Positions 2,960 through 54,962 of a stretch of DNA of 64,000 nucleotides are shown piece by piece. Within the stretch, counting starts at the first letter, position 1. Each line of letters begins with the position of its first letter. The position numbers and the translations under genes are program-made. The notes beneath the pieces are model-generated. The model was given only the letters and a program-made list of their open reading frames with translations. It was not told the origin of the DNA and made no database searches. Source of the DNA: a bacterium (GTDB taxonomy: Bacteria; Patescibacteriota; Minisyncoccia; Minisyncoccales; GWA2-46-15); assembly GCA_030693425.1 (NCBI GenBank), contig JAUYAM010000002.1, forward strand, positions 256,632 through 320,631, in the 5' to 3' direction.

Positions 2960-3565
2960 TTATACTCCTTTTATTTCTAACAAAGTGCCTCTTCTTCCCG
3001 GAACCGCTCCCTTGACCGCTATGATATTATTCTCTTTATCAATCTTGACGATTTTCAGGTTTTTGACGGTCACTCTTTCTGCTCCCATTCTTCCCGGCAT
3101 TTTCCTGCCCTTGACAACCCGGCCGGCACCGCTGGATCCGGTAGATCCCAAAGTTCTTAACTCGTGCTTGGTCCCGTGAGTGGCAGACAGTCTGCCTTTG
3201 AATCCCCACATTTTGACGGCTCCGGCTGTTCCTTTGCCTTTGGAGATTCCGGAAACCCTGACTTTGTCGCCTTCGCTGAAAATTCCTGCTTCTAAACTGT
3301 CTCCTGTCTTGTAATTCTTAATTTCTGCTTCAGGGACCCTGAACTCACGGATGTGCCTGAACTCTTTTCCTTTCATCGTTTTTTTAATCTTCTTTGCTTT
3401 AGTGATTTTCTCAAAACCCAGCTGAAAAGATGAATATCCGTCTTTGTCTCTGCTTTTAACCTGGAGTATCTGGCAGGGGCCTGCTTCAATCAAAGTCACC
3501 GGAACCACTTTTCCTTCGTCGAATATCTGGGTCATGTCGATTTTCTTTCCGAGAATGAATTTCAT
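2960..3565 (-). CDS. rplC: 50S ribosomal protein L3
   Basis: 201-aa ORF. GKKIDMTQIFDEGKVVPVTLIEAGP...GKGTAGAVK...ATHG is the uL3 signature. Confidence 0.92.
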   Translation of the reverse strand: MKFILGKKIDMTQIFDEGKVVPVTLIEAGPCQILQVKSRDKDGYSSFQLGFEKITKAKKIKKTMKGKEFRHIREFRVPEAEIKNYKTGDSLEAGIFSEGDKVRVSGISKGKGTAGAVKMWGFKGRLSATHGTKHELRTLGSTGSSGAGRVVKGRKMPGRMGAERVTVKNLKIVKIDKENNIIAVKGAVPGRRGTLLEIKGV

Positions 3566-3568
3566 AAC

Positions 3569-3606
3569 CGCTGATTTTCGCTGATCTAAACGCTGATTAA
3601 CGCTGA
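3569..3606 (+). repeat. array of four CGCTGA(T/A) hexamers spaced 10, 12, 10 nt
   Basis: CGCTGA starts at 3569, 3579, 3591 and 3601, read directly from the sequence. The inverse array lies at 3966-4003. Confidence 0.7.
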
Positions 3607-3615
3607 AACTGGCAA

Positions 3616-3830
3616 CCCCGTAGGAAATTAAATATTTTCCGTTAAATTTCTTAACCGACTGTTTGTATAAAGCAAGGTTTGTTTCATTTGATAAGAATTA
3701 GATTGAAAAGAAAATATTTATTTATTATGTTTTTGAAATAATCTCTCTTGGTTACTCCGAAAGATTAAAGTCAATTATCTCTAAATCTCTGGTTCGAGAA
3801 ACAACGAAAACATAATCATTTCCTACGGGG
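3616..3830. mobile_element. MITE-like element copy E1 (215 bp) inside the rpsJ-rplC spacer
   Basis: CCCCGTAGGAAATTA at 3616-3630 and its inverse ATTTCCTACGGGG at 3818-3830. AT-rich, ORF-free interior. Flanked by CAA at 3613-3615 and 3831-3833. Confidence 0.6.
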
Positions 3831-3965
3831 CAACGAAAAACTGGGCGCTAGCCCAGCTTTCCGCAGACTAGTTTATTTACGCTTTTCTTTAAAATGCTGT
3901 TTCAATTTGTTTTACCATCATAAAACAAAAATCTTTTTAAGTAAAGAGTTTCTCGCGCACGCGGT

Positions 3966-4003
3966 TCAGCGTCGTTCCGCGTCTAGTTCAGCGTTAGTTC
4001 AGC
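3966..4003 (-). repeat. inverse array of TCAGCG hexamers (reverse complement of CGCTGA)
   Basis: TCAGCG at 3966, 3988 and 3998, with a degenerate copy near 3976. It mirrors the 3569-3606 array across the spacer. Confidence 0.65.
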
Positions 4004-4008
4004 GGACT

Positions 4009-4356
4009 TTACATTTTTATCTCGATATCCACTCCGGTGGGCAGATTGAGATTTGTCAGGGCATCGATCACTTTCTGTCCCGGCTCTAAGATGTCAATCA
4101 GCCTTTTGTGGACTCTCATTTCAAACTGTTCCCGGCTGTCCTTGTGGACGAAAGTCGAGCGGTTGACGGTGTATTTTCTGATCTCGGTTGGCAAAGGAAT
4201 CGGGCCCCTTATCTTGACCTCGAATCTCTGGGCAGTTTCAACAATCTGACGGCAGCTGGCGTCGAGTATCTTGTGATCGTAAGCGCGCAGCCTGATGCGC
4301 AATCTCGGCACTTCAATAGTTTCCGTTTTTTCTGAAGCTTTGGTTTTGGTTGCCAT
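4009..4356 (-). CDS. rpsJ: 30S ribosomal protein S10
   Basis: 115-aa [16 protein letters not shown]...IRGPIPLPT...[28 protein letters not shown] is the uS10 signature. Confidence 0.93.
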
Positions 4357-5675: not shown

Positions 5676-7784
5676 CTACCGTCTCTTCCCCTCAATAATC
5701 TCCCGAGCGATGTTCTGGGGCATTTCCTGGTAATGGAAGAATTCCATGGTGAAAGTTCCCCGGCCCTCGGTCAGAGACCTCAAAGAAGTGGCGTAGCCGA
5801 ACATTTCCGACAAGGGAACCTCGCCGTCGATAATCTTTGATTCAAGGCGATCCGAAGTTTCCTTAATCTGGCCTCTCTTGGAATTGAAATTGCCGATGAC
5901 CTCGCTGAAAAAGTTTTTGGGACAGATTATCTCGATTTTCATGATCGGCTCCAAAAGGACCGGCTTTGCCCTTTTGGCAACTTCTTGGAAAGCCTGGATC
6001 GAAGCGATCTTAAAAGCGAGCTCCGAAGAATCGACTTCGTGAAAAGAACCATCGTAAAGGCTGACTTCCAGATCAACCATCGGGTAGCCGGCGACGACTC
6101 CTTTTTCCATGGCTTCCTTGACTCCTTTTTCAACCGCCGGAATGTATTCCTGAGGAATGATTCCGCCTCTGATGTCGTTGATAAACTCGAATCCTTGACC
6201 GGACTCTCTGGGCTTGGCTTTCAGCCAGACGTGGCCGTACTGGCCACGGCCGCCAGACTGCTTGATGTACCTACCCTCAGCTTCAGCCTCAATCCTGATC
6301 GTTTCCCGGTAAGCGACTTGGGGGCGGCCGACGTTGGCCTCGACGCTAAACTCCCGCTTCATCCTGTCGACGATAATCTCAAGGTGCAACTCTCCCATGC
6401 CGGAAATGATAGTCTCCCCTGTTTCCATATCTCCCTTGACTTTAAAGGTCGGGTCCTCGTCTGACAGGCGTTTCAGGGCCGTGCCCATTTTCTCCTGGTC
6501 AGCTTTTGTTTTCGGCTCAATCCTGACGGAAATAACAGGTTCTGGAAACGTGATATTCTCCAGAACTATCGGGTGATCTTCGTCGCAAAGAGTGTGGCCG
6601 GTGGAGGTAGTTTTCAGGCCGACGGTGGCCCCGATCTCGCCGGCATAGATTTCCTCGACTTCCTCCCTTTCATTGGCGTGCATTCTTAAAATTCTGCCGA
6701 TTCTTTCCTTGTCCCTGGTGCTGGTATTTAAAACATAGGATCCCCTGGTCAGTTTTCCCGAATAGACTCTGAAAAACGTCAGGGTGCCGACGTAAGGGTC
6801 ATTTGCGATCTTAAAAGCCAGGGCGGCAAAAGGCTCCTCGTCAGAAGCTTTTCTTTCTACTTCCTGGCCGGTTTTAGGATCTATGCCTTTTACCGGTGGC
6901 AGATCCAAGGGAGAAGGCAGAAACTGGATAACGGCGTCCAAAATAGTCTCTGCCATAATTTTGCGGCCGTCTCCTCCTAAAATCGGAAAAAACTTCCCAG
7001 ACAGAGTCGACTTCCTGATGGCTAAAAGAAGCTCTTCTTCGGTCAGAATATTGTCTGAAAGGAATTTCTCAACCAGTTCGTCGTCAGCTTCAACCGTTCT
7101 TTCTATCAGTTCGGCTCGGTATTTTTCAACCAGCTTTTTCATGTCTTCTGGGATGGGCACTTCTTTCATTTCCAATCCCTGGTCGTCCGCATAGACAAAA
7201 GCTTTTCTCGTTATCAGATCGACGACCCCACAAAGATTCCCCTCCGACCCGATCGGCAGCTGGATCGGCGAGGCGCTGGGCGTTAATCTGTTACGGATGG
7301 AATCGACGCTCTCGTAGAAATTACCGCCGGTCAGATTGAGTTTGTTGATATAGCACATCCTGGAAACGTTGTATCTGTCTGCCTGCCTCCAGACCGTTTC
7401 CGACTGGGGCTGGACTCCTTCTTTGCCGTCAAAAACGACCACGGCTCCGTCCAAAACTCTCAAAGATCTCTGGACCTCGGCCGTAAAATCAATGTGTCCG
7501 GGAGTATCGATAATATTGATCCGAAAGTCGTCTTTGCCTAAGGGGCCGAAGTTCAGAATCTTTGTTTTCCAAAAACAGGTGGTCGCCGCCGAGGTGATGG
7601 TGATCCCCCTTTCCCTTTCTTGAGCCATCCAGTCCATTTGCGTCGAGCCCTCGTCGATATTACCGATTTTGTGGGTTTTGCCGGTGTAATACAAAAGCGT
7701 CTCGGTGGTGGTAGTCTTGCCGGCATCAATATGGGCGATAATACCGATGTTGCGGATTCTTTCTAAAGGATAGAGTCTAGGCAT
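5676..7784 (-). CDS. fusA: elongation factor G
   Basis: EF-G signature [21 protein letters not shown] start at [14 protein letters not shown] (ATG 7782-7784). The 23 upstream codons of the tracked ORF fall in a repeat element. Confidence 0.95.
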
Positions 7785-7792
7785 TTCAAAAC

Positions 7793-7876
7793 TTGTATCT
7801 TGTATTTGGTATCTAGTATCTAGTATCCGAATATTAAATAATACTAAATACAAAATACTAGATACTAAATACTAGG
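7793..7876. repeat. TAGTAT-rich quasi-palindromic intergenic element, copy A
   Basis: GTATCTAGTAT can pair with ATACTAGATAC downstream. Shares ATACTAGATACTAAATAC and TACTAAATACAAAATACTA with copy B at 14337-14400 in inverted orientation. Confidence 0.6.
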
Positions 7877-9715: not shown

Positions 9716-9845
9716 TAAAATCCAAATTTCAAAATCCAAATTACAAATAAATTCCAAATTCCAAAATTCTAAACCGTTTAAATATTTAAACTTTGGTCAT
9801 TGGATATTGTTTGGGATTTGATGCTTGGTGCTTGGAATTTAATAT
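9716..9845. repeat. long degenerate inverted repeat of A-tract/TCCAAA units around a perfect 16-bp palindrome
   Basis: GTTTAAATATTTAAAC at 9778-9793 is a perfect palindrome. The left arm carries AAATCCAAA/AAATTCCAAA units. The right arm carries TTTGGGATTT/TTGGAATTT units. Confidence 0.45.
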
Positions 9846-9848
9846 TTA

Positions 9849-9919
9849 CGGGCTGTAGTATAACAGTAGTATACCACTTTGGGGTAGTGGCGGTCCCGGC
9901 GCACCTCCGGGCAGCCCGA
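9849..9919 (+). ncRNA. tRNA-sized cloverleaf, possible atypical tRNA-Pro(GGG) or tRNA mimic
   Basis: 7-bp acceptor CGGGCTG/CAGCCCG plus A73. Anticodon stem with loop TTGGGGT (GGG, G37). 5-bp T stem CCCGG/CCGGG. However, the T loop is CGCACCT with no TTC, and the D loop has no GG. Confidence 0.3.
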
Positions 9920-9937
9920 CATCTAAACAAAAACCGT

Positions 9938-10810
9938 ATGAAACTTCTGCCGGTTAAATGTAATTTCTGTGGAAAAAAGTTTTATCGCTCGATTGGCAGA
10001 ATTAACGAATCTAAAAAATCTGGTTGGAAACAATTTTGCTCTCCACGGTGCCTATCTCGCCTTAGGACTACGAGACAATTTTTAACATGCGCCAATCCAA
10101 CTTGTGGGCAAAAATTCTATCGAGAGATTTCGCAAATAAAGATAGTTAAAAGATCTTTTTGTTCTTCATCCTGCACCGCCGTTTTTAACAACCGCGAACG
10201 CTATAAGAACCTGCCGCCAAATCTATGCGCTAACCCTTTATGCAGAAAACCGATACCGCGTGGAAGGAAATACTGCTCATCAGCTCACCGCATTAACCCA
10301 AAAAAGATACCGGAAGATTTACACAGAGAGCAGATTATTAATCGGATCAAAGATTTCTATCGAAAGCGGAAAAGAATACCGGTTAAGCGAGAGATGTACG
10401 GCATTTATAAAACAGCGAGATACTTATTCGGTAACTGGAATAATGCGGTAAAGGCGTCTGGCTTTAAACCGAATCCGGTGATGTTTTCGGAAAAACAGAT
10501 TGCCAACGATGGTCATATTTGCGATTCCGTCGCCGAAAAGATAATCGATAACTGGTTGTCTGCCAGAAAAATCATCCACCAAAGAAATGTCGCCTACCCC
10601 GAAAGTCCCTATACTGCTGATTTTGCCATCAATGGGAAATTGATAGAATTTTTTGGATTAGCTGGAGAAATGAAAAATTATGATAATATTATCTTAGAGA
10701 AAAGAAAGATATCTACAAAATCGAAAATCCCCCTTATAGAAATTTATCCCCGTGACCTGTTTCCTATTAAAAACCTCAATAGAGTTTTATCCAAACAATT
10801 ACTAGCTTAA
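9938..10810 (+). CDS. Zn-ribbon repeat / HEARO-like repeat / Vsr(DUF559)-like endonuclease-fold protein
   Basis: Start at MKLLPVKCNFCGKKF (ATG 9938). Three CxxCGK..F..FCSxxC modules. YLFGNWNNAVKASGF resembles the homing-endonuclease-associated repeat. The C-terminus YTADFAINGKLIEFFG is PD-(D/E)xK/Vsr-like. Confidence 0.6.
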   Translation: MKLLPVKCNFCGKKFYRSIGRINESKKSGWKQFCSPRCLSRLRTTRQFLTCANPTCGQKFYREISQIKIVKRSFCSSSCTAVFNNRERYKNLPPNLCANPLCRKPIPRGRKYCSSAHRINPKKIPEDLHREQIINRIKDFYRKRKRIPVKREMYGIYKTARYLFGNWNNAVKASGFKPNPVMFSEKQIANDGHICDSVAEKIIDNWLSARKIIHQRNVAYPESPYTADFAINGKLIEFFGLAGEMKNYDNIILEKRKISTKSKIPLIEIYPRDLFPIKNLNRVLSKQLLA

Positions 10811-13126: not shown

Positions 13127-13191
13127 ACCTCACGCCAAAAACGCCCGGCCTTTCCCGGCCTTTTTTGATTCTCAAACCTAGAACAAAAACA

Positions 13192-13223
13192 ATCGATAAA
13201 CCTACGATCGTAGGTTTATCGAT
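13192..13223. repeat. perfect 32-bp palindrome ATCGATAAACCTACGATCGTAGGTTTATCGAT, copy 1
   Basis: Perfect dyad checked base by base. Lies 42 nt 3' of the kinase-like gene stop and is followed on the reverse strand by TTGTTTTTG. A second copy is at 54891-54918. Confidence 0.85.
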
Positions 13224-13264
13224 ATTTCAATGTCAATGGATTTACCCCGGCAATTTAATTTTAA

Positions 13265-14332: not shown

Positions 14333-14336
14333 ATTC

Positions 14337-14400
14337 CTTGTATTTAGTATTTTGTATTTAGTATCTAGTATACGAAATACCAGATACAAGATACTAGATG
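14337..14400. repeat. TAGTAT-rich quasi-palindromic intergenic element, copy B
   Basis: TATCTAGTAT pairs with ATACTAGAT. Related to 7793-7876 in inverted orientation. Fills the gap between the MBL gene stop and the kinase-like gene start. Confidence 0.6.
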
Positions 14401-14412
14401 CAAAAACCCGAG

Positions 14413-24484: not shown

Positions 24485-24844
24485 CCCCGTAGGAAATTAC
24501 CTGCCCGCCGAATAAACCAAAATTTTAGAGTAAATAATTTGACAATCTAATTCACATCTATATGCGGTGTAAATTAAATGCTTCTTGTCTTTACATTAAA
24601 ATTTTGGGCGGCTTTGGCAGGCGGGAAATATTTTCTTGATGTTAATTTTAACCTTTGTTATCTATTTAATTAACTATATTATGATATCTACGGCGTCCTC
24701 GTTAAAATTGCGTACGCAATGTTAACGAGGATATGGATAATGTAAAAGGGTAAATAAATACTAAATTATTTAAACGGGTTTTCTTGATAAAAATATTTTT
24801 GCCGTCTTGGTTAGCCACGGAAAACTCTGCGTTTTCCTACGGGG
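24485..24844. mobile_element. MITE-like element copy E2 (360 bp)
   Basis: CCCCGTAGGAAATTA at 24485-24499 and the inverse GTTTTCCTACGGGG at 24831-24844. Flanked by TTT at 24482-24484 and 24845-24847. The right end provides the stop codon of the upstream gene. Confidence 0.6.
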
Positions 24845-25880
24845 TTTCCCCGTTCTCAAAAAGGTCTTTGCGGCCTTTTGGCAGATGGCCGTTCAAATTG
24901 AGATAAACCAAGAGGCCGAAAGGCATGGGCAGCCAGTAAGAAACAAGCCTGTATAAGAGGACGGAAAATAAGGAAACGTGGGCCGGAAAGCCCAGACTGA
25001 TGAAAACCGTCACCATCGAAGCTTCCATGACCCCGGGAGCTTCGGGAAACAGGCTTAAAGCCGAAAGCAGGTAAGAGAGGATAACGCCGAGGATCAGTAA
25101 GGGAATGCTGGGCCGGTAGCCAAAAACAAAAAAAGAGAAATAAATAACAGAAAGATTGACAGTATAAAGCAACAGGGAAAAAACTAGGACCCTGACAGCT
25201 TTTGCCCGGCTCTGCAAAACCAAGCCTAGATCCCTCAAAAGTTCCCCGATAATCCCCTTGATTTTCTCTTGCCCAAGAAGTTCCCTTTTGGCAAAAACTC
25301 CGCCGATTTTATCGATCGGTTTTGCCGCCAGGCATAAAAGCAGAATCAGGTTTTTTGCTCTATTTCTGAATAAAAAATACCCTGAGAGCAGGACAAAGAT
25401 AACCGCAATCAGAATGCTTAAAATCTCTTTCTGGGGGACGAGGGAAGGGAAAGACCGGCGGACAAGAATTATTGAAACGAAAGAAAAAATAATGTAATTC
25501 AAAAGGTTTAAAATCGAAGAAACCGTCGCTAAGAATAAGAAAGTTGAGGAAGAAATCTTGTGCTTTTTGTAAAAAAGATAGGCAAGAACGGCGCCGCCGA
25601 CAAAAGGGGCCACCTGAAAACCCAAAGTTATCAAAGCTCCAACTTTAACCGTTTCTTTCAAAGATATCCTGGTGCCGGCGATCTCCAAAAGGGTTTTTGA
25701 AAGTAAGCCGTAAGTCAGATAGAAAACTCCTTCGGCCAAAATCAATATCAAAAACAGCTCTTTTCTGGCCTCGTTGAAAAGAGCGGGAATATCGTGGTAA
25801 GAAGAGCGGAATTTCGAGGAAACGAGAGAAAAAGCGACAACTATCAGAATAACGACGAACAGGTATCTAAGATAGCGCAT
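24837..25880 (-). CDS. polytopic membrane protein, flippase-like (UPF0104 / LPG-synthase TM-region-like)
   Basis: 347-aa ORF with eight or more TM segments. Last gene of the export operon. Family call from overall architecture only. Confidence 0.5.
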   Translation of the reverse strand: MRYLRYLFVVILIVVAFSLVSSKFRSSYHDIPALFNEARKELFLILILAEGVFYLTYGLLSKTLLEIAGTRISLKETVKVGALITLGFQVAPFVGGAVLAYLFYKKHKISSSTFLFLATVSSILNLLNYIIFSFVSIILVRRSFPSLVPQKEILSILIAVIFVLLSGYFLFRNRAKNLILLLCLAAKPIDKIGGVFAKRELLGQEKIKGIIGELLRDLGLVLQSRAKAVRVLVFSLLLYTVNLSVIYFSFFVFGYRPSIPLLILGVILSYLLSALSLFPEAPGVMEASMVTVFISLGFPAHVSLFSVLLYRLVSYWLPMPFGLLVYLNLNGHLPKGRKDLFENGETP

Positions 25881-44539: not shown

Positions 44540-44902
44540 TCAGCAGGTTGTATGGATCAAGGCGTTGATTTTCTGCCCCAACCCAGCTTTCTCATTATAA
44601 AACTTGATGGCTTCTGGCGTCAGCAAGGCAATAACGATTATCCCCTTTTCCCTGGCCAGGCCAACGAAATCTTCTCCGACCTCCAGAGCCCCCTGCCAGC
44701 CGGTTCCAATAACAATGATTTCGGGATTTTCTTCAAACAGCTTTTCTGCCTCCCAATCGCCTATCTTATGAGAAGTGCCAAACAGCTCTTCAAGCCTCTT
44801 ATAGTCTCTTTCTAAAACTTCAGAGCCCACAATTAAAACCTGATGGTATTTCTTGCCATCAATGACAATTGAACCAAAATCAACTGAATCAATTTTTGGC
44901 AT
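44540..44902 (-). CDS. Mth938-like (DUF498) domain protein
   Basis: 120-aa ORF. IVIDGKKY..VLIV......W........PEIIVIGTG....EV......LAREKGI.V....T.EA...YN pattern recalled for Mth938-like domains. Confidence 0.6.
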   Translation of the reverse strand: MPKIDSVDFGSIVIDGKKYHQVLIVGSEVLERDYKRLEELFGTSHKIGDWEAEKLFEENPEIIVIGTGWQGALEVGEDFVGLAREKGIIVIALLTPEAIKFYNEKAGLGQKINALIHTTC

Positions 44903-45052
44903 CCCCGTAGGAAATTAAATATCTTCCGTGGTTAAAACGTTTAAGCTTTCATATATCATAAGACATTGTTTGAAAATAGTTAGAGGGGTTTTAGAATGAA
45001 GATATTTCGCTTCCTGAAAATTCCACGAAAACCCCTGCGTTTTTCTACGGGG
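44903..45052. mobile_element. MITE-like element copy E3 (150 bp), exactly filling an intergenic gap
   Basis: CCCCGTAGGAAATTA at 44903-44917 and the inverse TTTTTCTACGGGG at 45040-45052. Flanked by CAT at 44900-44902 and 45053-45055. About 29-nt imperfect TIRs, each ending in TTCCGTGG or its complement CCACG(G)AA. Confidence 0.65.
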
Positions 45053-45362
45053 CATTCTTGCCGGGAAAGATAAAAGTTTTTTTGAAAATAATCTTGTACA
45101 GATTTTCGAGAAAGTCGCCTCCGGCATAGCCGACAATCAGGGCCAGGGGTGGGGTTAAAGTGTCCAGGCCAGAAATGATGACGCCCGACTGCTTGATCGC
45201 CGCTGCGGTCAGCAAGCCCACCACTCCGGACAAAAAAGAAGTCGCAAAAAAGTAGAGGGGATTAAAAGGAGTGTTTTTATAAGAGTAATAGTATTTTAGA
45301 AAACCGACCAGTCCCCTGATTAGGCCGCCTCCAAACCCGGCAACTAGGATAGAAAAGTACAT
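45045..45362 (-). CDS. small Gly-rich membrane protein
   Basis: 105-aa ORF with three hydrophobic segments. The last codons GCC CCG TAG come from the element E3 terminus. Confidence 0.55.
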   Translation of the reverse strand: MYFSILVAGFGGGLIRGLVGFLKYYYSYKNTPFNPLYFFATSFLSGVVGLLTAAAIKQSGVIISGLDTLTPPLALIVGYAGGDFLENLYKIIFKKTFIFPGKNAP

Positions 45363-54706: not shown

Positions 54707-54890
54707 ATCAAAGATGCGTTTAGGCTTTACTTAAAGAAACACAAGATTCTAGCGTCGTTCCGCAGGCAGGACCATGGCGTCAGTCCAACGACCTGAGTTG
54801 CTTAACACGGAGTTGCTTAACTTGTAACTTGATTAAGCAACCGCAAATAAAAAATGGCTAAATCTTTTTAAAACCAGTTTGTCCAACAAC

Positions 54891-54918
54891 CGATAAACCT
54901 ACGATCGTAGGTTTATCG
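54891..54918. repeat. 28-bp perfect palindrome CGATAAACCTACGATCGTAGGTTTATCG, copy 2
   Basis: Same core as 13192-13223. Lies 45 nt 3' of the stop of the reverse-strand radical SAM gene. Confidence 0.85.
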
Positions 54919-54962
54919 ATATGATTTGTTCGGAAAACTTAATTGAGTGCTAATCAAACAGC

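What the first reader, a model, noticed from the sequence alone, without database searches (positions are those of the whole stretch)
44903..45052. MITE-like element E3: TIRs, 3-bp target duplication, and an excision product that restores an overlapping gene pair
Seen in sequence:
- A 150-bp AT-rich, ORF-free segment is bounded by CCCCGTAGGAAATTA (44903-44917) and the inverse TTTTTCTACGGGG (45040-45052).
- The imperfect inverted similarity extends to about 29 nt. The left end is CCCCGTAGGAAATTAAATATCTTCCGTGG and the right end is CCACGAAAACCCCTGCGTTTTTCTACGGGG.
- It is flanked by CAT on both sides (44900-44902 and 45053-45055).
- The left CAT is the reverse-strand ATG of the Mth938-like gene.
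- The right terminus supplies GCC CCG TAG, the last two codons and stop of the upstream membrane-protein gene.
- Removing the element plus one CAT gives the reverse strand ...GGC AAG AAT GCC AAA AAT TGA. The upstream ORF then ends NAKN* and overlaps the downstream ATG by 14 nt, a normal compact arrangement.
- Two more copies with identical left termini exist at 3616-3830 and 24485-24844, each with its own 3-bp flank duplication (CAA, TTT).

Inference: this is a non-autonomous transposable element family with a 3-bp target-site duplication. No transposase is present in this window.
Basis: partly seen in the sequence, partly recalled or inferred. Interest (0 to 1): 0.75.

Follow-up and report, generated by a model that had tools for sequence, protein, structure and literature searches.

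The report
Mini transposon tied to GIY-YIG nuclease
A 150-base mobile DNA insert sits exactly on a gene's start codon in an ultra-small (CPR/Patescibacteria) bacterium, and it belongs to a widespread family whose complete ~300-base members encode only a tiny GIY-YIG nuclease, which points to a kind of bacterial transposon I could not find described.

Summary
Window 44903-45052 is a 150-bp, ORF-free element with inverted ends (CCCCGTAGGAAAT...), flanked by CAT/CAT. Two more copies lie at 3616-3830 and 24485-24844.

It is an insertion. Near-identical strains (99% identical flanks) carry the same site empty, with one copy, with two or three tandem copies, or with a composite copy.

The family is common in Patescibacteria genomes. 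Across about 49 copies the flanking duplication is 3-5 bp, mostly 4. It is usually TATG/CATA, and the ATG is the start codon of a gene co-oriented with one particular end (p about 4e-9).

The new result concerns the longest copies (about 300-310 bp, same ends). They hold a single 87-aa GIY-YIG nuclease gene of the Slx1/UPF0213 type, under strong purifying selection. Copy E1 in the window is a decayed deletion derivative of such a copy. More distant GIY-YIG minigenes (at least 68 of 80 sampled) are also bracketed by their own inverted repeats.

I infer that this nuclease, not a classical transposase, mobilises the family. That step is not shown. Nine literature searches found no description.

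The parts
44903..45052 (-). Element E3, 150 bp, non-coding. Its orientation (B-end to A-end) runs on the minus strand, the same direction as the flanking genes.
   Evidence: The same site is empty or occupied in relatives.
44900..44902 (.). Left copy of the target duplication (CAT, which is ATG on the minus strand). It is the start codon of the DUF498 gene.
   Evidence: Empty sites have a single ATG.
45053..45055 (.). Right copy of the target duplication (CAT).
44903..44929 (-). A-end: the terminal repeat plus a conserved subterminal block (...ACGGAAGATATTTAATTTCCTACGGGG on the minus strand). This is the end that abuts the downstream gene's ATG across the family.
   Evidence: It is 88-100% conserved over 27 nt in most copies from other genomes. 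Orientation rule.
45040..45052 (-). B-end terminal repeat (CCCCGTAGAAAAA on the minus strand). Its TAG at 45045-45047 is now the stop codon of the upstream ORF.
45028..45036 (-). 5' arm of an internal inverted repeat (AGGGGTTTT). It pairs with 44984-44992 (AAAACCCCT).
   Evidence: Pairing is kept in relatives with a few compensatory changes, which are not statistically significant.
44984..44992 (-). 3' arm of that internal inverted repeat.
44998..45007 (-). AAATATCTTC, complementary to GAAGATATTT in the A-end (44917-44926). The C/G pair unique to E3 changes on both sides.
44540..44902 (-). Downstream host gene (DUF498/Mth938-like, 120 aa). Its ATG lies inside the duplication.
45045..45362 (-). 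Upstream host ORF (105-aa predicted membrane protein). Its last two codons and stop come from the element. In empty sites it is 106 aa and ends NAKN*.
3616..3830 (-). Element E1, 215 bp, between rpsJ and rplC, flanks CAA/CAA. It is a decayed internal-deletion derivative of a copy that carried the GIY-YIG gene.
   Evidence: Alignment A3.
24485..24844 (-). Element E2, 360 bp, flanks TTT/TTT. It is an E3-type element carrying a nested second element. The TAG in its right end stops the LPG-synthase-like ORF 24837-25880(-).
   Evidence: Same architecture as L207.
24500..24625 (.). A 126-bp element of another type, nested in the A-end of E2 (CCTGCCCGCC...GGCAGGCGGG).

Best explanation
E3 is a non-autonomous, MITE-like copy of a family of very small mobile elements of Patescibacteria with terminal inverted repeats.

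Shown:
- It was inserted at the ATG of the DUF498 gene and duplicated ATG (3 bp, possibly 4).
- Before insertion the upstream ORF overlapped that ATG by 14 nt.
- After insertion both ORFs stay intact. The downstream gene keeps an ATG directly after the element's A-end. The upstream ORF gains two codons and a TAG from the B-end.
- The site is polymorphic among 99%-identical strains, so the family has been active recently.
- The family usually duplicates 4 bp, prefers TATG, and typically lands on the start codon of a gene co-oriented with the element.
- Full-length members (about 300-310 bp) contain one gene only, an 87-aa GIY-YIG nuclease of the Slx1/UPF0213 type. Its ribosome-binding AGGA lies inside the B-end repeat.
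- Shorter copies such as E1 are internal deletions of these full-length members.

Inferred:
- The nuclease, supplied in trans by an intact copy elsewhere in the genome, recognises the conserved ends, perhaps as a folded or branched DNA structure.
- It makes the staggered cuts for excision and insertion, and host polymerase and ligase finish the joints.
- Selection, and possibly target choice, keeps insertions that preserve the flanking genes.
For: Insertion and recent mobility:
- Empty site in L209, L211 and L212. One copy in L205 and L206. Two tandem copies in L208 and three in L210. A composite copy in L207. All are at the identical position.
- Flanks of L209 versus L205-L210 are 99.0-99.9% identical.
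- Logan contigs of the source sample break 30 nt inside both ends, as expected of a repeat.

Family and duplication:
- Of 49 pairs, the flanks are duplicated by 4 bp in 30, 3 bp in 6 and 5 bp in 1. The commonest are CATA (9), TATG (8), TATA (3) and CATG (3).
- Tandem arrays share the duplicated target as spacer: L110 with TATG, L127 with TGA.

Start-codon rule:
- In 24 of 46 elements the A-end abuts an ATG that opens an ORF of at least 60 aa.
- In 19 of 46 that ATG is the 5'-most start in its frame, against 8.9% of all YATG sites (binomial p 4e-9).
- Only 2 cases sit on the B-end side.

Link to GIY-YIG:
- The 299-311-bp copies with the same ends (L077, L110, L023, L013, L125, L126, L130) hold one ORF.
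- That ORF matches Pfam PF01541 at E 1.5e-17.
- Catalytic-type residues (Y5, Y16, G18, R26, H30, E62) are invariant across 23 aligned homologues; in the larger 116-sequence set R26 stays invariant and the others are at least 90% conserved.
- dN/dS is 0.06-0.15, including between two copies in one genome.
- The AlphaFold model has pLDDT 94.9. Its nearest structures are UPF0213 proteins and the Slx1 nuclease domain.
- E1, L111, L057, L091 and L082 align as internal deletions of these copies.
- Gene-bearing and gene-less copies co-occur in the same MAGs: MHLV01, CAYSWC and JAHCSE.
- At least 68 of 80 more distant GIY-YIG minigenes are bracketed by their own matching inverted repeats, in units of about 280-310 bp with no other gene.
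- No pair of termini 0.4-6 kb apart enclosing another gene was seen.
Against: - No experiment or read-level data show that the nuclease cuts the ends or the target.
- GIY-YIG enzymes hydrolyse DNA and do not join it, so joining must be left to the host.
- No GIY-YIG gene lies in this 64-kb window. I could not read the rest of the source genome.
- E3-type interiors share only the ends, the A-end block and the positions of inverted repeats with the gene-bearing copies. Descent by deletion is shown for E1 and only inferred for E3.
- Duplication length varies from 3 to 5 bp.
- Many distant families show unequal flanks (TTCA|...|TAAA), which a simple staggered-cut model does not explain.
- Covariation in the internal stems is not statistically significant.
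- The tandem copies in L208 and L210 are separated by CAAA, not by the local duplication. This is unexplained and could be an assembly effect.
Confidence: 0.6

Rival explanations
1. E3 is an ordinary MITE mobilised by a conventional (DDE-type) transposase of an insertion sequence that shares the CCCCGTAGGAAAT ends but was not sampled. The GIY-YIG ORF would be a passenger, or a separate selfish gene that colonised the element.
For: - Inverted ends with a 3-5 bp duplication are the classical signature of DDE transposition (established knowledge of the IS3, IS5, IS30 and IS1380 families).
- I could not read whole genomes.
- No GIY-YIG gene lies in the window.
Against: - None of the roughly 200 loci fetched shows termini enclosing a transposase.
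- The GIY-YIG gene is the sole content of full-length units across many families with very different repeats.
- It is under strong purifying selection.
- Its ribosome-binding site lies inside the terminal repeat.
- Its 3' end often overlaps the other repeat. A passenger would not be built into both ends in this way.
Confidence: 0.22
2. The elements spread mainly by homing. The GIY-YIG nuclease would cut empty alleles, and recombinational repair would copy the element from an occupied allele. The flank repeats would then reflect a preferred cleavage site rather than transposition.
For: - GIY-YIG enzymes are classical homing endonucleases (I-TevI; weak structural match).
- The same DUF498 site is occupied in two lineages whose flanking genes are only about 80% identical, while the two elements are 63% identical.
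- Precise empty sites occur.
Against: - Copies sit at many unrelated loci within one genome. Each has its own duplicated 3-5 bp, including non-consensus ones (CAAG, TTAG, CTCG, CTTA). Homing does not produce this.
- Nested and tandem insertions occur.
- The 87-aa protein has no separate DNA-binding domain for a long homing site.
Confidence: 0.1
3. The 150 bp is a resident functional intergenic module (a small RNA, promoter or terminator), not an insertion.
For: - Conserved inverted repeats give a stable fold (z -2.0 and -2.8).
- Pairing potential is retained in relatives.
- The position directly upstream of a start codon is consistent across copies.
Against: - Empty sites in 99%-identical strains and in relatives.
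- Copies at unrelated loci with target duplications.
- No Rfam match.
- No sense-strand promoter or terminator consensus.
- A secondary, exapted role in coupling expression of the flanking genes is not excluded.
Confidence: 0.03

Closest known systems
Bacterial MITEs without a known transposase (Neisseria Correia elements, enterobacterial ERIC/IRU, pneumococcal RUP/BOX, Bacillus cereus bcr1). This comparison rests on my own knowledge.
   Same: - Size of 100-300 bp, AT-rich and non-coding.
- Terminal inverted repeats and a short target duplication.
- Many copies.
- Sit in transcribed intergenic spacers next to gene starts.
- Can fold into a long hairpin.
   Different: - Here a gene-bearing relative exists, and it encodes a GIY-YIG nuclease rather than a DDE transposase.
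- The duplication is TATG/ATG and coincides with the start codon, with a fixed orientation.
- The hosts are Patescibacteria.
Insertion sequence families with a 3-4 bp duplication (IS3, the IS5 subgroups IS427, IS1031 and ISL2, IS30, IS1380, IS701). This comparison rests on my own knowledge of ISfinder family features.
   Same: Inverted ends, a 3-5 bp duplication and a preference for a short palindromic-like target.
   Different: - No DDE gene was found.
- The full-length unit is about 300 bp, against at least 800 bp for insertion sequences.
- The ends begin CCCC, not TG...CA or GG.
Free-standing and intron-encoded GIY-YIG homing endonucleases (I-TevI, and the Seg proteins of phage T4)
   Same: - A GIY-YIG catalytic domain in a selfish element.
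- Insertion next to or between genes without destroying them.
   Different: - Those proteins are 200-250 aa and have a separate DNA-binding domain.
- They recognise one long site and move by recombinational repair.
- They have no inverted ends, no target duplication and no dispersed copies.
- The structural match is weak (Foldseek E 0.4).
Slx1 and the UPF0213/YhbQ family (PDB 1zg2, 1ywl, 7cq2, 4xm5)
   Same: They are the best sequence and fold matches for the catalytic domain (HMM E 5e-10; TM about 0.63). Slx1 cuts branched and hairpin DNA, which would suit an element whose ends and interior are inverted repeats.
   Different: - Slx1 has a C-terminal zinc-finger domain and the partner Slx4.
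- UPF0213 proteins are not known to be flanked by repeats or to be mobile.
IS200/IS605 elements and their palindrome-associated derivatives
   Same: - Very small elements.
- DNA hairpins are recognised rather than long protein-binding sites.
- A tetranucleotide target lies on one side. The unequal TTCA|...|TAAA flanks of distant GIY-YIG families look formally like this.
   Different: - They use an HUH (Y1) transposase.
- They have no inverted ends and no duplication.
- The family studied here makes true duplications.

Membership tests
MITE (miniature inverted-repeat transposable element) | Terminal inverted repeats | tested here: met
   The outer 12-13 nt plus an inner TTYCGTKG block are inverted at both ends of E1, E2 and E3 and of about 50 other copies.
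MITE (miniature inverted-repeat transposable element) | Target-site duplication, and an empty site that has one copy of it | tested here: met
   CAT/CAT at E3. Empty sites in L209, L211 and L212 carry a single ATG. Family-wide the duplications are 3-5 bp.
MITE (miniature inverted-repeat transposable element) | Small, non-coding and multicopy | tested here: met
   E3 is 150 bp with no plausible ORF. There are 3 copies in the window and at least 8-10 in single MAGs such as MHLV01.
MITE (miniature inverted-repeat transposable element) | Derived from an autonomous element that encodes a transposase and shares the ends | tested here: inconclusive
   Longer copies with the same ends exist, and E1 is a deletion derivative of them. 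Their only gene is a GIY-YIG nuclease, which is not a recognised transposase.
DDE insertion sequences with a 3-4 bp duplication (IS3, IS5, IS30, IS1380, IS701) | A DDE transposase gene between the inverted ends | tested here: not met
   No termini enclose an ORF other than the GIY-YIG gene in any fetched locus. The search was limited to the fetched loci.
GIY-YIG homing endonuclease genes | GIY-YIG catalytic domain with conserved Tyr, Arg and Glu | tested here: met
   PF01541 at E 1.5e-17. Y5, Y16, G18, R26, H30 and E62 are invariant across 23 aligned homologues; in the 116-sequence set R26 is invariant and the rest are at least 90% conserved.
GIY-YIG homing endonuclease genes | A linked DNA-binding domain and one long specific homing site, with no inverted ends or duplication | tested here: not met
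   The protein is 87 aa with a single domain. Copies lie at many unrelated sites with inverted ends and duplications.
Slx1/UPF0213 clade of GIY-YIG nucleases | Closest sequence and fold similarity within the superfamily | tested here: met
   1zg2 at E 4.8e-10 and 1ywl at E 2.1e-8. Slx1 chains match with TM 0.61-0.65 on the query.
Slx1/UPF0213 clade of GIY-YIG nucleases | Structure-specific cleavage of branched DNA | not testable with these tools
   This needs biochemistry on hairpin, cruciform and flap substrates made from the element ends.
IS200/IS605 and derivatives | HUH transposase, no inverted ends, no duplication | tested here: not met
   Inverted ends and duplications are present. No HUH gene was seen.
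Described structured RNA families (Rfam 15) | A match to a covariance model | tested here: not met
   No match at the gathering threshold in the window except a tRNA. No match at E up to 1 over 44800-45150.

The most novel reading that the evidence does not exclude
The 87-aa GIY-YIG nuclease is itself the mobility enzyme. The unit of about 300 bp (two inverted ends plus this one gene) would then be an autonomous prokaryotic transposon of a new enzymatic class, and possibly the smallest known. It would insert preferentially on start codons, in the gene's orientation, so that it borrows the host gene's expression signals while duplicating the ATG and leaving the gene intact. E3-type MITEs would be its non-autonomous derivatives. 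The thousands of small 'GIY-YIG nuclease family protein' genes in Patescibacteria and other phyla would be mobile elements rather than repair genes.
Probability: 0.45. Interest if true: 0.9.

Novelty: new variant of a known kind. Interest (0 to 1): 0.78.

Why it matters
- Many bacterial MITE families have no known transposase. A nuclease-based parent element would give a concrete, testable answer for at least one large group.
- It would add an enzyme class to the short list that moves prokaryotic DNA (DDE, DEDD, HUH, serine, tyrosine, Cas1).
- It would re-label a very large set of small GIY-YIG genes as selfish elements. That set has 18,813 clusters at 50% identity with E up to 1e-3, and its members are currently annotated as 'excinuclease ABC subunit C' or 'GIY-YIG nuclease family protein'.
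- Start-codon insertion with duplication of the ATG shows how a mobile element can persist in tiny, gene-dense genomes with overlapping genes. Here it sits even inside the S10 ribosomal-protein operon.
- A compact nuclease that recognises short ends and a 4-bp target might be of practical interest.
- These repeats break short-read assemblies of CPR genomes and create false N- or C-terminal extensions in gene calls.

Tried and rejected
1. Halobacillus and Bacillaceae hits to the terminus pattern. They are an unrelated, longer conserved repeat in which the motif is internal. Rejected as family members.
2. Single hits in Proteobacteria, Clostridia and other non-Patescibacteria groups. These are unpaired, about as many as chance predicts for the pattern (my estimate, roughly 140), and were ignored.
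3. Search for long copies: termini 0.4-6 kb apart, and ORFs inward of unpaired termini in L011 and L113. Only mutated mates 120-150 bp away, or solo ends next to housekeeping genes, were found. No transposase was seen.
4. Known RNA families. None matched.
5. A promoter or terminator inside E3 on the gene strand. None was found; the only promoter-like matches are antisense.
6. Covariation test of three candidate stems. 91% of cells are paired, against 69% or less for slid controls. Only 3 pairs have compensatory changes, which is not significant, so I make no claim of a selected RNA or DNA structure.
7. Exact-protein look-ups for the genes flanking E1 and E2. They returned only contigs from the source sample that stop at the elements, so I have no empty-site test for E1 or E2.
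8. Scan for ORFs spanning the insertion in distant GIY-YIG families. 7 of 10 long interrupted ORFs fit 'core plus 4 nt', and 3 do not. I could not derive one excision rule.
9. Orientation relative to neighbouring genes in general. Only 52 co-oriented against 26 anti-oriented, much weaker than the start-codon rule.
10. Nine literature searches for a GIY-YIG transposon, a GIY-YIG MITE or MITEs in CPR bacteria. Nothing relevant turned up in the held library.
Full report
**1. The observation**

Reading the window confirms the description.
- The 150 bases at 44903-45052 begin CCCCGTAGGAAATTA and end TTTTTCTACGGGG.
- CAT lies on both sides (44900-44902 and 45053-45055).
- On the minus strand the left CAT is the ATG of ORF 44540-44902, which is DUF498/Mth938-like (PF04430, E 1.5e-13).
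- ORF 45045-45362(-) ends GCC CCG TAG inside the right end.
- The terminus 13-mer, with up to 2 mismatches, occurs six times, exactly as three inverted pairs. Shuffles give 1.9.
- E1 (3616-3830) is flanked by CAA/CAA and E2 (24485-24844) by TTT/TTT.
- Only the ends are alike. The interiors of the three copies do not align.
- The ends are bipartite: CCCCGTAGGAAA, then 8-10 variable bases, then TTYCGTKG.

**2. It is an insertion, and a recent one**

- The closest DUF498 homologue on record, after the protein itself, is P0123 (83% identity). It is encoded on contigs from several samples. At exactly the E3 position these contigs differ.
  - L209 is empty: ...CCCAGGAGAGAATGCCAAAAATTGATTC.
  - L205 and L206 carry one 146-bp element flanked by ATG|...|ATG.
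  - L208 carries two tandem copies and L210 three.
  - L207 carries one copy with a second element nested in its A-end.
- The flanks of L209 and of the occupied contigs are 99.0-99.9% identical. This is therefore strain-level presence/absence.
- More distant relatives L211 (86%) and L212 (83%) are also empty: GGCGAGAATGCCAAAAATTGA.
- In all empty sites the upstream ORF is 106-108 aa, and in the site I translated (L209) it ends NAKN*.
- The short-read contigs of the source sample stop 30 nt inside each end of E3, which is typical of a repeat.

**3. The family**

- I scanned one genome per species with CCCCGTAGRAAA-N9-10-TTYCGT.
- Unpaired hits in unrelated phyla are about as many as chance predicts. 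Halobacillus hits belong to another, longer repeat.
- In Patescibacteria MAGs the hits are paired, 120-310 bp apart. These include Nealsonbacteria RBG_13_36_15, several Saccharibacteria, Liptonbacteria, Wildermuthbacteria and 'Patescibacteria group' bins.
- Of 49 pairs, the flanks are directly repeated by 4 bp in 30, 3 bp in 6 and 5 bp in 1.
  - Of the 12 without an exact repeat, several match 3 of 4 and some are nested or duplicate calls.
  - The repeats are CATA (9), TATG (8), TATA (3) and CATG (3), plus singletons such as CAAG, TTAG, CTTA and CTCG. The singletons show the flanks are copied from the target and not carried by the element.
- The window's three 3-bp duplications could be read as 4 bp if one terminal C/G is counted as flank. 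True 3-bp cases exist elsewhere (L085, L046, L127).
- E3 aligns over its full length with copies in other MAGs: L103 at 77% and L085 at 73%. The 150-bp subtype is therefore itself a dispersed family.

**4. Start codons and orientation**

- The two ends differ just inside the repeat. I call the end ...ACGGAAAATATTTAATTTCCTACGGGG the A-end. In window coordinates this is the left end of E1 and E3.
- After orienting all copies, the duplication is almost always TATG, CATG or AATG when read from B-end to A-end.
- In 24 of 46 elements the ATG next to the A-end opens an outward ORF of 60-642 aa.
- In reconstructed empty sites that ATG is the 5'-most start of its frame in 19 of 46. The figure for all YATG sites in the same loci is 8.9% (binomial p 4e-9).
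- Only two cases lie on the B-end side.
- E3 follows the rule. Insertion on the ATG, with duplication of the ATG, leaves both neighbouring ORFs whole.
- I cannot tell whether this reflects target choice or survival of harmless insertions in gene-dense genomes.
- E3 has no sense-strand promoter or terminator consensus and no Rfam match.

**5. The longer copies encode a GIY-YIG nuclease**

- The 299-311-bp copies with the same ends (L077, L110, L023, L013, L125, L126, L130) are filled by one ORF. It starts 4-5 nt after the B-end repeat and stops about 30 nt before the A-end repeat. The AGGA inside the B-end repeat lies 7 nt upstream of its ATG.
- The 87-aa product is a GIY-YIG domain (PF01541, E 1.5e-17).
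- It has 888 close relatives of 84-93 aa, mostly from Patescibacteria. They are annotated 'GIY-YIG nuclease family protein' or 'excinuclease ABC subunit C' and lie mostly on short contigs.
- The catalytic-type residues are invariant in a 23-sequence alignment and nearly so in a 116-sequence one.
- dN/dS is 0.06-0.15 while synonymous sites approach saturation. This includes two copies within one genome. The ends stay nearly invariant over the same divergence.
- The AlphaFold model is confident (pLDDT 94.9).
- Its nearest solved relatives are the UPF0213 proteins BH0048 and EF2693 (E 5e-10 and 2e-8) and the nuclease domain of Slx1 (TM 0.61-0.65). I-TevI matches only weakly.
- Alignment A3 shows that E1 of the window, and L111, L057, L091 and L082, are internal-deletion derivatives of the gene-bearing copies. 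They share ATTATGTTTTACG, AAAACATAAT, AAAGTATTTTC and the A-end.
- Gene-bearing and gene-less copies occur together in the same MAGs.
- The window itself has no GIY-YIG gene.

**6. Breadth**

- Using an alignment of the nuclease, I fetched 80 metagenome loci.
- In at least 68 of them the minigene is bracketed by its own inverted repeats, in units of about 270-430 bp, most of them 280-310 bp. The repeat cores vary: CCCCGTTAGAGAT, CCCCGTTAGATA, CCCCGTTGGATTAAAAAA, CCCTGTTAAATAA, CCCCGTGAGATA and CCCAGTAACTCAACT.
- Several have clean 4-bp duplications: TATG in L126, L130, L141, L158 and L170; also TAAA, TTTA, TCTA, TACA, TCAA and TTTG.
- In every TATG case I read, the right-hand ATG starts a co-oriented host gene.
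- A profile search of 1.84 billion cluster representatives finds 18,813 clusters at E up to 1e-3 and 4,315 at E up to 1e-10. Many are 'extended' at the N-terminus.
- One gene call starts MPRR..., which is ATG CCC CGT AGG: the duplicated ATG read through the repeat.

**7. How it most likely works**

Shown:
- E3 is an insertion with a duplicated ATG.
- The family is dispersed, recently active and start-codon-associated.
- Its largest members encode only a conserved GIY-YIG nuclease.

Inferred:
- This nuclease is the mobility enzyme. It would act in trans on E3-type copies through the conserved ends.
- Staggered hydrolytic cuts of 3-4 nt at the target, followed by host fill-in and ligation, would give the duplications.
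- The Slx1-like fold and the nested inverted repeats (ends; GGGGTTTT/AAAACCCC; AAATATCTTC/GAAGATATTT) suggest recognition of a folded or branched DNA form.
- That pairing is conserved, but its covariation is not significant.

I put about 0.97 on 'mobile non-autonomous element' and about 0.55-0.6 on 'mobilised by the GIY-YIG nuclease'.

**8. Rivals**

- An unsampled DDE transposase with the same ends remains possible, with GIY-YIG as a passenger.
  - It fits poorly with a gene built into both ends across many repeat families, and with the absence of any other enclosed gene.
- Pure homing cannot give dispersed copies with site-specific duplications. It might still contribute to the repeated occupancy of the DUF498 site in lineages about 80% identical, whose two elements are only 63% identical.
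- A resident functional RNA is excluded as the primary explanation by the empty sites.

**9. Unexplained**

- In many distant families the flanks are unequal: TTCA|...|TAAA or its reverse complement TTTA|...|TGAA, in about equal numbers relative to the gene.
  - Interrupted host ORFs (integrases, an IS91-type transposase, a reverse transcriptase, a RecG-like protein) suggest that TTCA is the original target and that four further bases are added with the element.
  - Frames fit in only 7 of 10 cases.
- The tandem copies in L208 and L210 are separated by CAAA rather than by the local ATG. This could mark a circular or concatemeric intermediate from another donor site, or it could be an assembly effect.

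**10. Novelty**

Nine full-text searches found no description of a GIY-YIG-encoding inverted-repeat transposon, of MITEs derived from one, or of MITEs in CPR bacteria. The library is incomplete, so prior work cannot be excluded.

E3 as such is a MITE, which is a known kind. Its parentage and its start-codon habit make it at least a new variant. If the nuclease is the transposase, the parent element would be categorically new.

Noticed in passing
window 24500-24625; L207 about 2094-2215: A second, different small element (CCYGCCYGCC...CCAAAATTTT at both ends, about 126 bp) is nested at the same point of the A-end (ATATTT|...|TAATTTCC) in window copy E2 and in L207, which sit at unrelated host loci. 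The composite therefore seems to move as a unit. No clear duplication flanks the nested element.
   Followed up: partly
L208 1495-1790; L210 about 1940-2385: There are two tandem copies (L208) and three (L210) of the E3-type element at the DUF498 site. The units are separated by CAAA (GGGG CAAA CCCC), not by the local ATG duplication. This could be a trace of a circular or concatemeric intermediate from another donor site, or an assembly loop.
   Followed up: no
L134, L137, L150, L155, L163, L191, L193, L198, L202, L203 (element flanks): Distant GIY-YIG minigene elements lie inside long ORFs, mostly of other selfish genes: tyrosine recombinases, an IS91-type transposase and a reverse transcriptase. 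Their flanks are TTCA|...|TAAA or TTTA|...|TGAA. L202 splits HTLRHSF|FATHLLE and has a clean TTTG duplication.
   Followed up: partly
L127 2484-3043; L110 3482-3986: These are tandem arrays in which each unit is separated by the same short target: TGA in L127 (one gene-bearing copy plus two MITE copies) and TATG in L110. The pattern implies repeated insertion into the duplicated target.
   Followed up: partly
L107 2343-2610; L076 2328-2586: In two different MAGs a MITE copy is inserted into another copy at the same internal site (TTTTCTCG|CCATTTCC, near the B-end). In L107 the CTCG is duplicated.
   Followed up: no
window 3566-4008: E1 sits in the S10 ribosomal-protein operon between rpsJ (4009-4356) and rplC (2960-3565). 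The spacer is 443 bp, still about 225 bp without E1, which is unusually long for this operon.
   Followed up: no
window 3569-3607: There are four direct repeats of CGCTGA(T) immediately between the rplC start and the left flank of E1.
   Followed up: no
window 13181-13225 and 54885-54931: Two 97%-identical copies of a perfect 32-nt palindrome (ATCGATAAACCTACGATCGTAGGTTTATCGAT) lie in intergenic DNA. They are probably a shared terminator-like hairpin or another small repeat.
   Followed up: no
window 7777-7876 and 14336-14412: Long AT-rich hairpins built from GTAT-type short units (CTTGTATCTTGTATTTGGTATCTAGTATCTAGTAT...) occur at two intergenic sites, in inverted and direct relation to each other.
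   Followed up: no
L005-L007, L016, L022, L026, L028, L037, L067, L068, L080, L081, L092, L097, L100, L101, L116, L118, L120, L121: Halobacillus and Bacillaceae genomes carry many copies of a conserved repeat, gcttgccagttcCCCCGTAGGAAAGCGAGTTGTTTCCGTAGCC.... It matched the search pattern by chance and is unrelated to the element. I did not identify it.
   Followed up: no
window 9849-9920: ARAGORN calls a tRNA-Pro(GGG) here, inside ORF 9800-10810(+). Rfam's tRNA model at the gathering threshold does not report it, so it may be a false positive.
   Followed up: no
window 24696-24735: A near-perfect palindrome (CCTCGTTAAAATTGCGTACGCAATGTTAACGAGG) lies inside E2. It is absent from E3 and from L205.
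   Followed up: no
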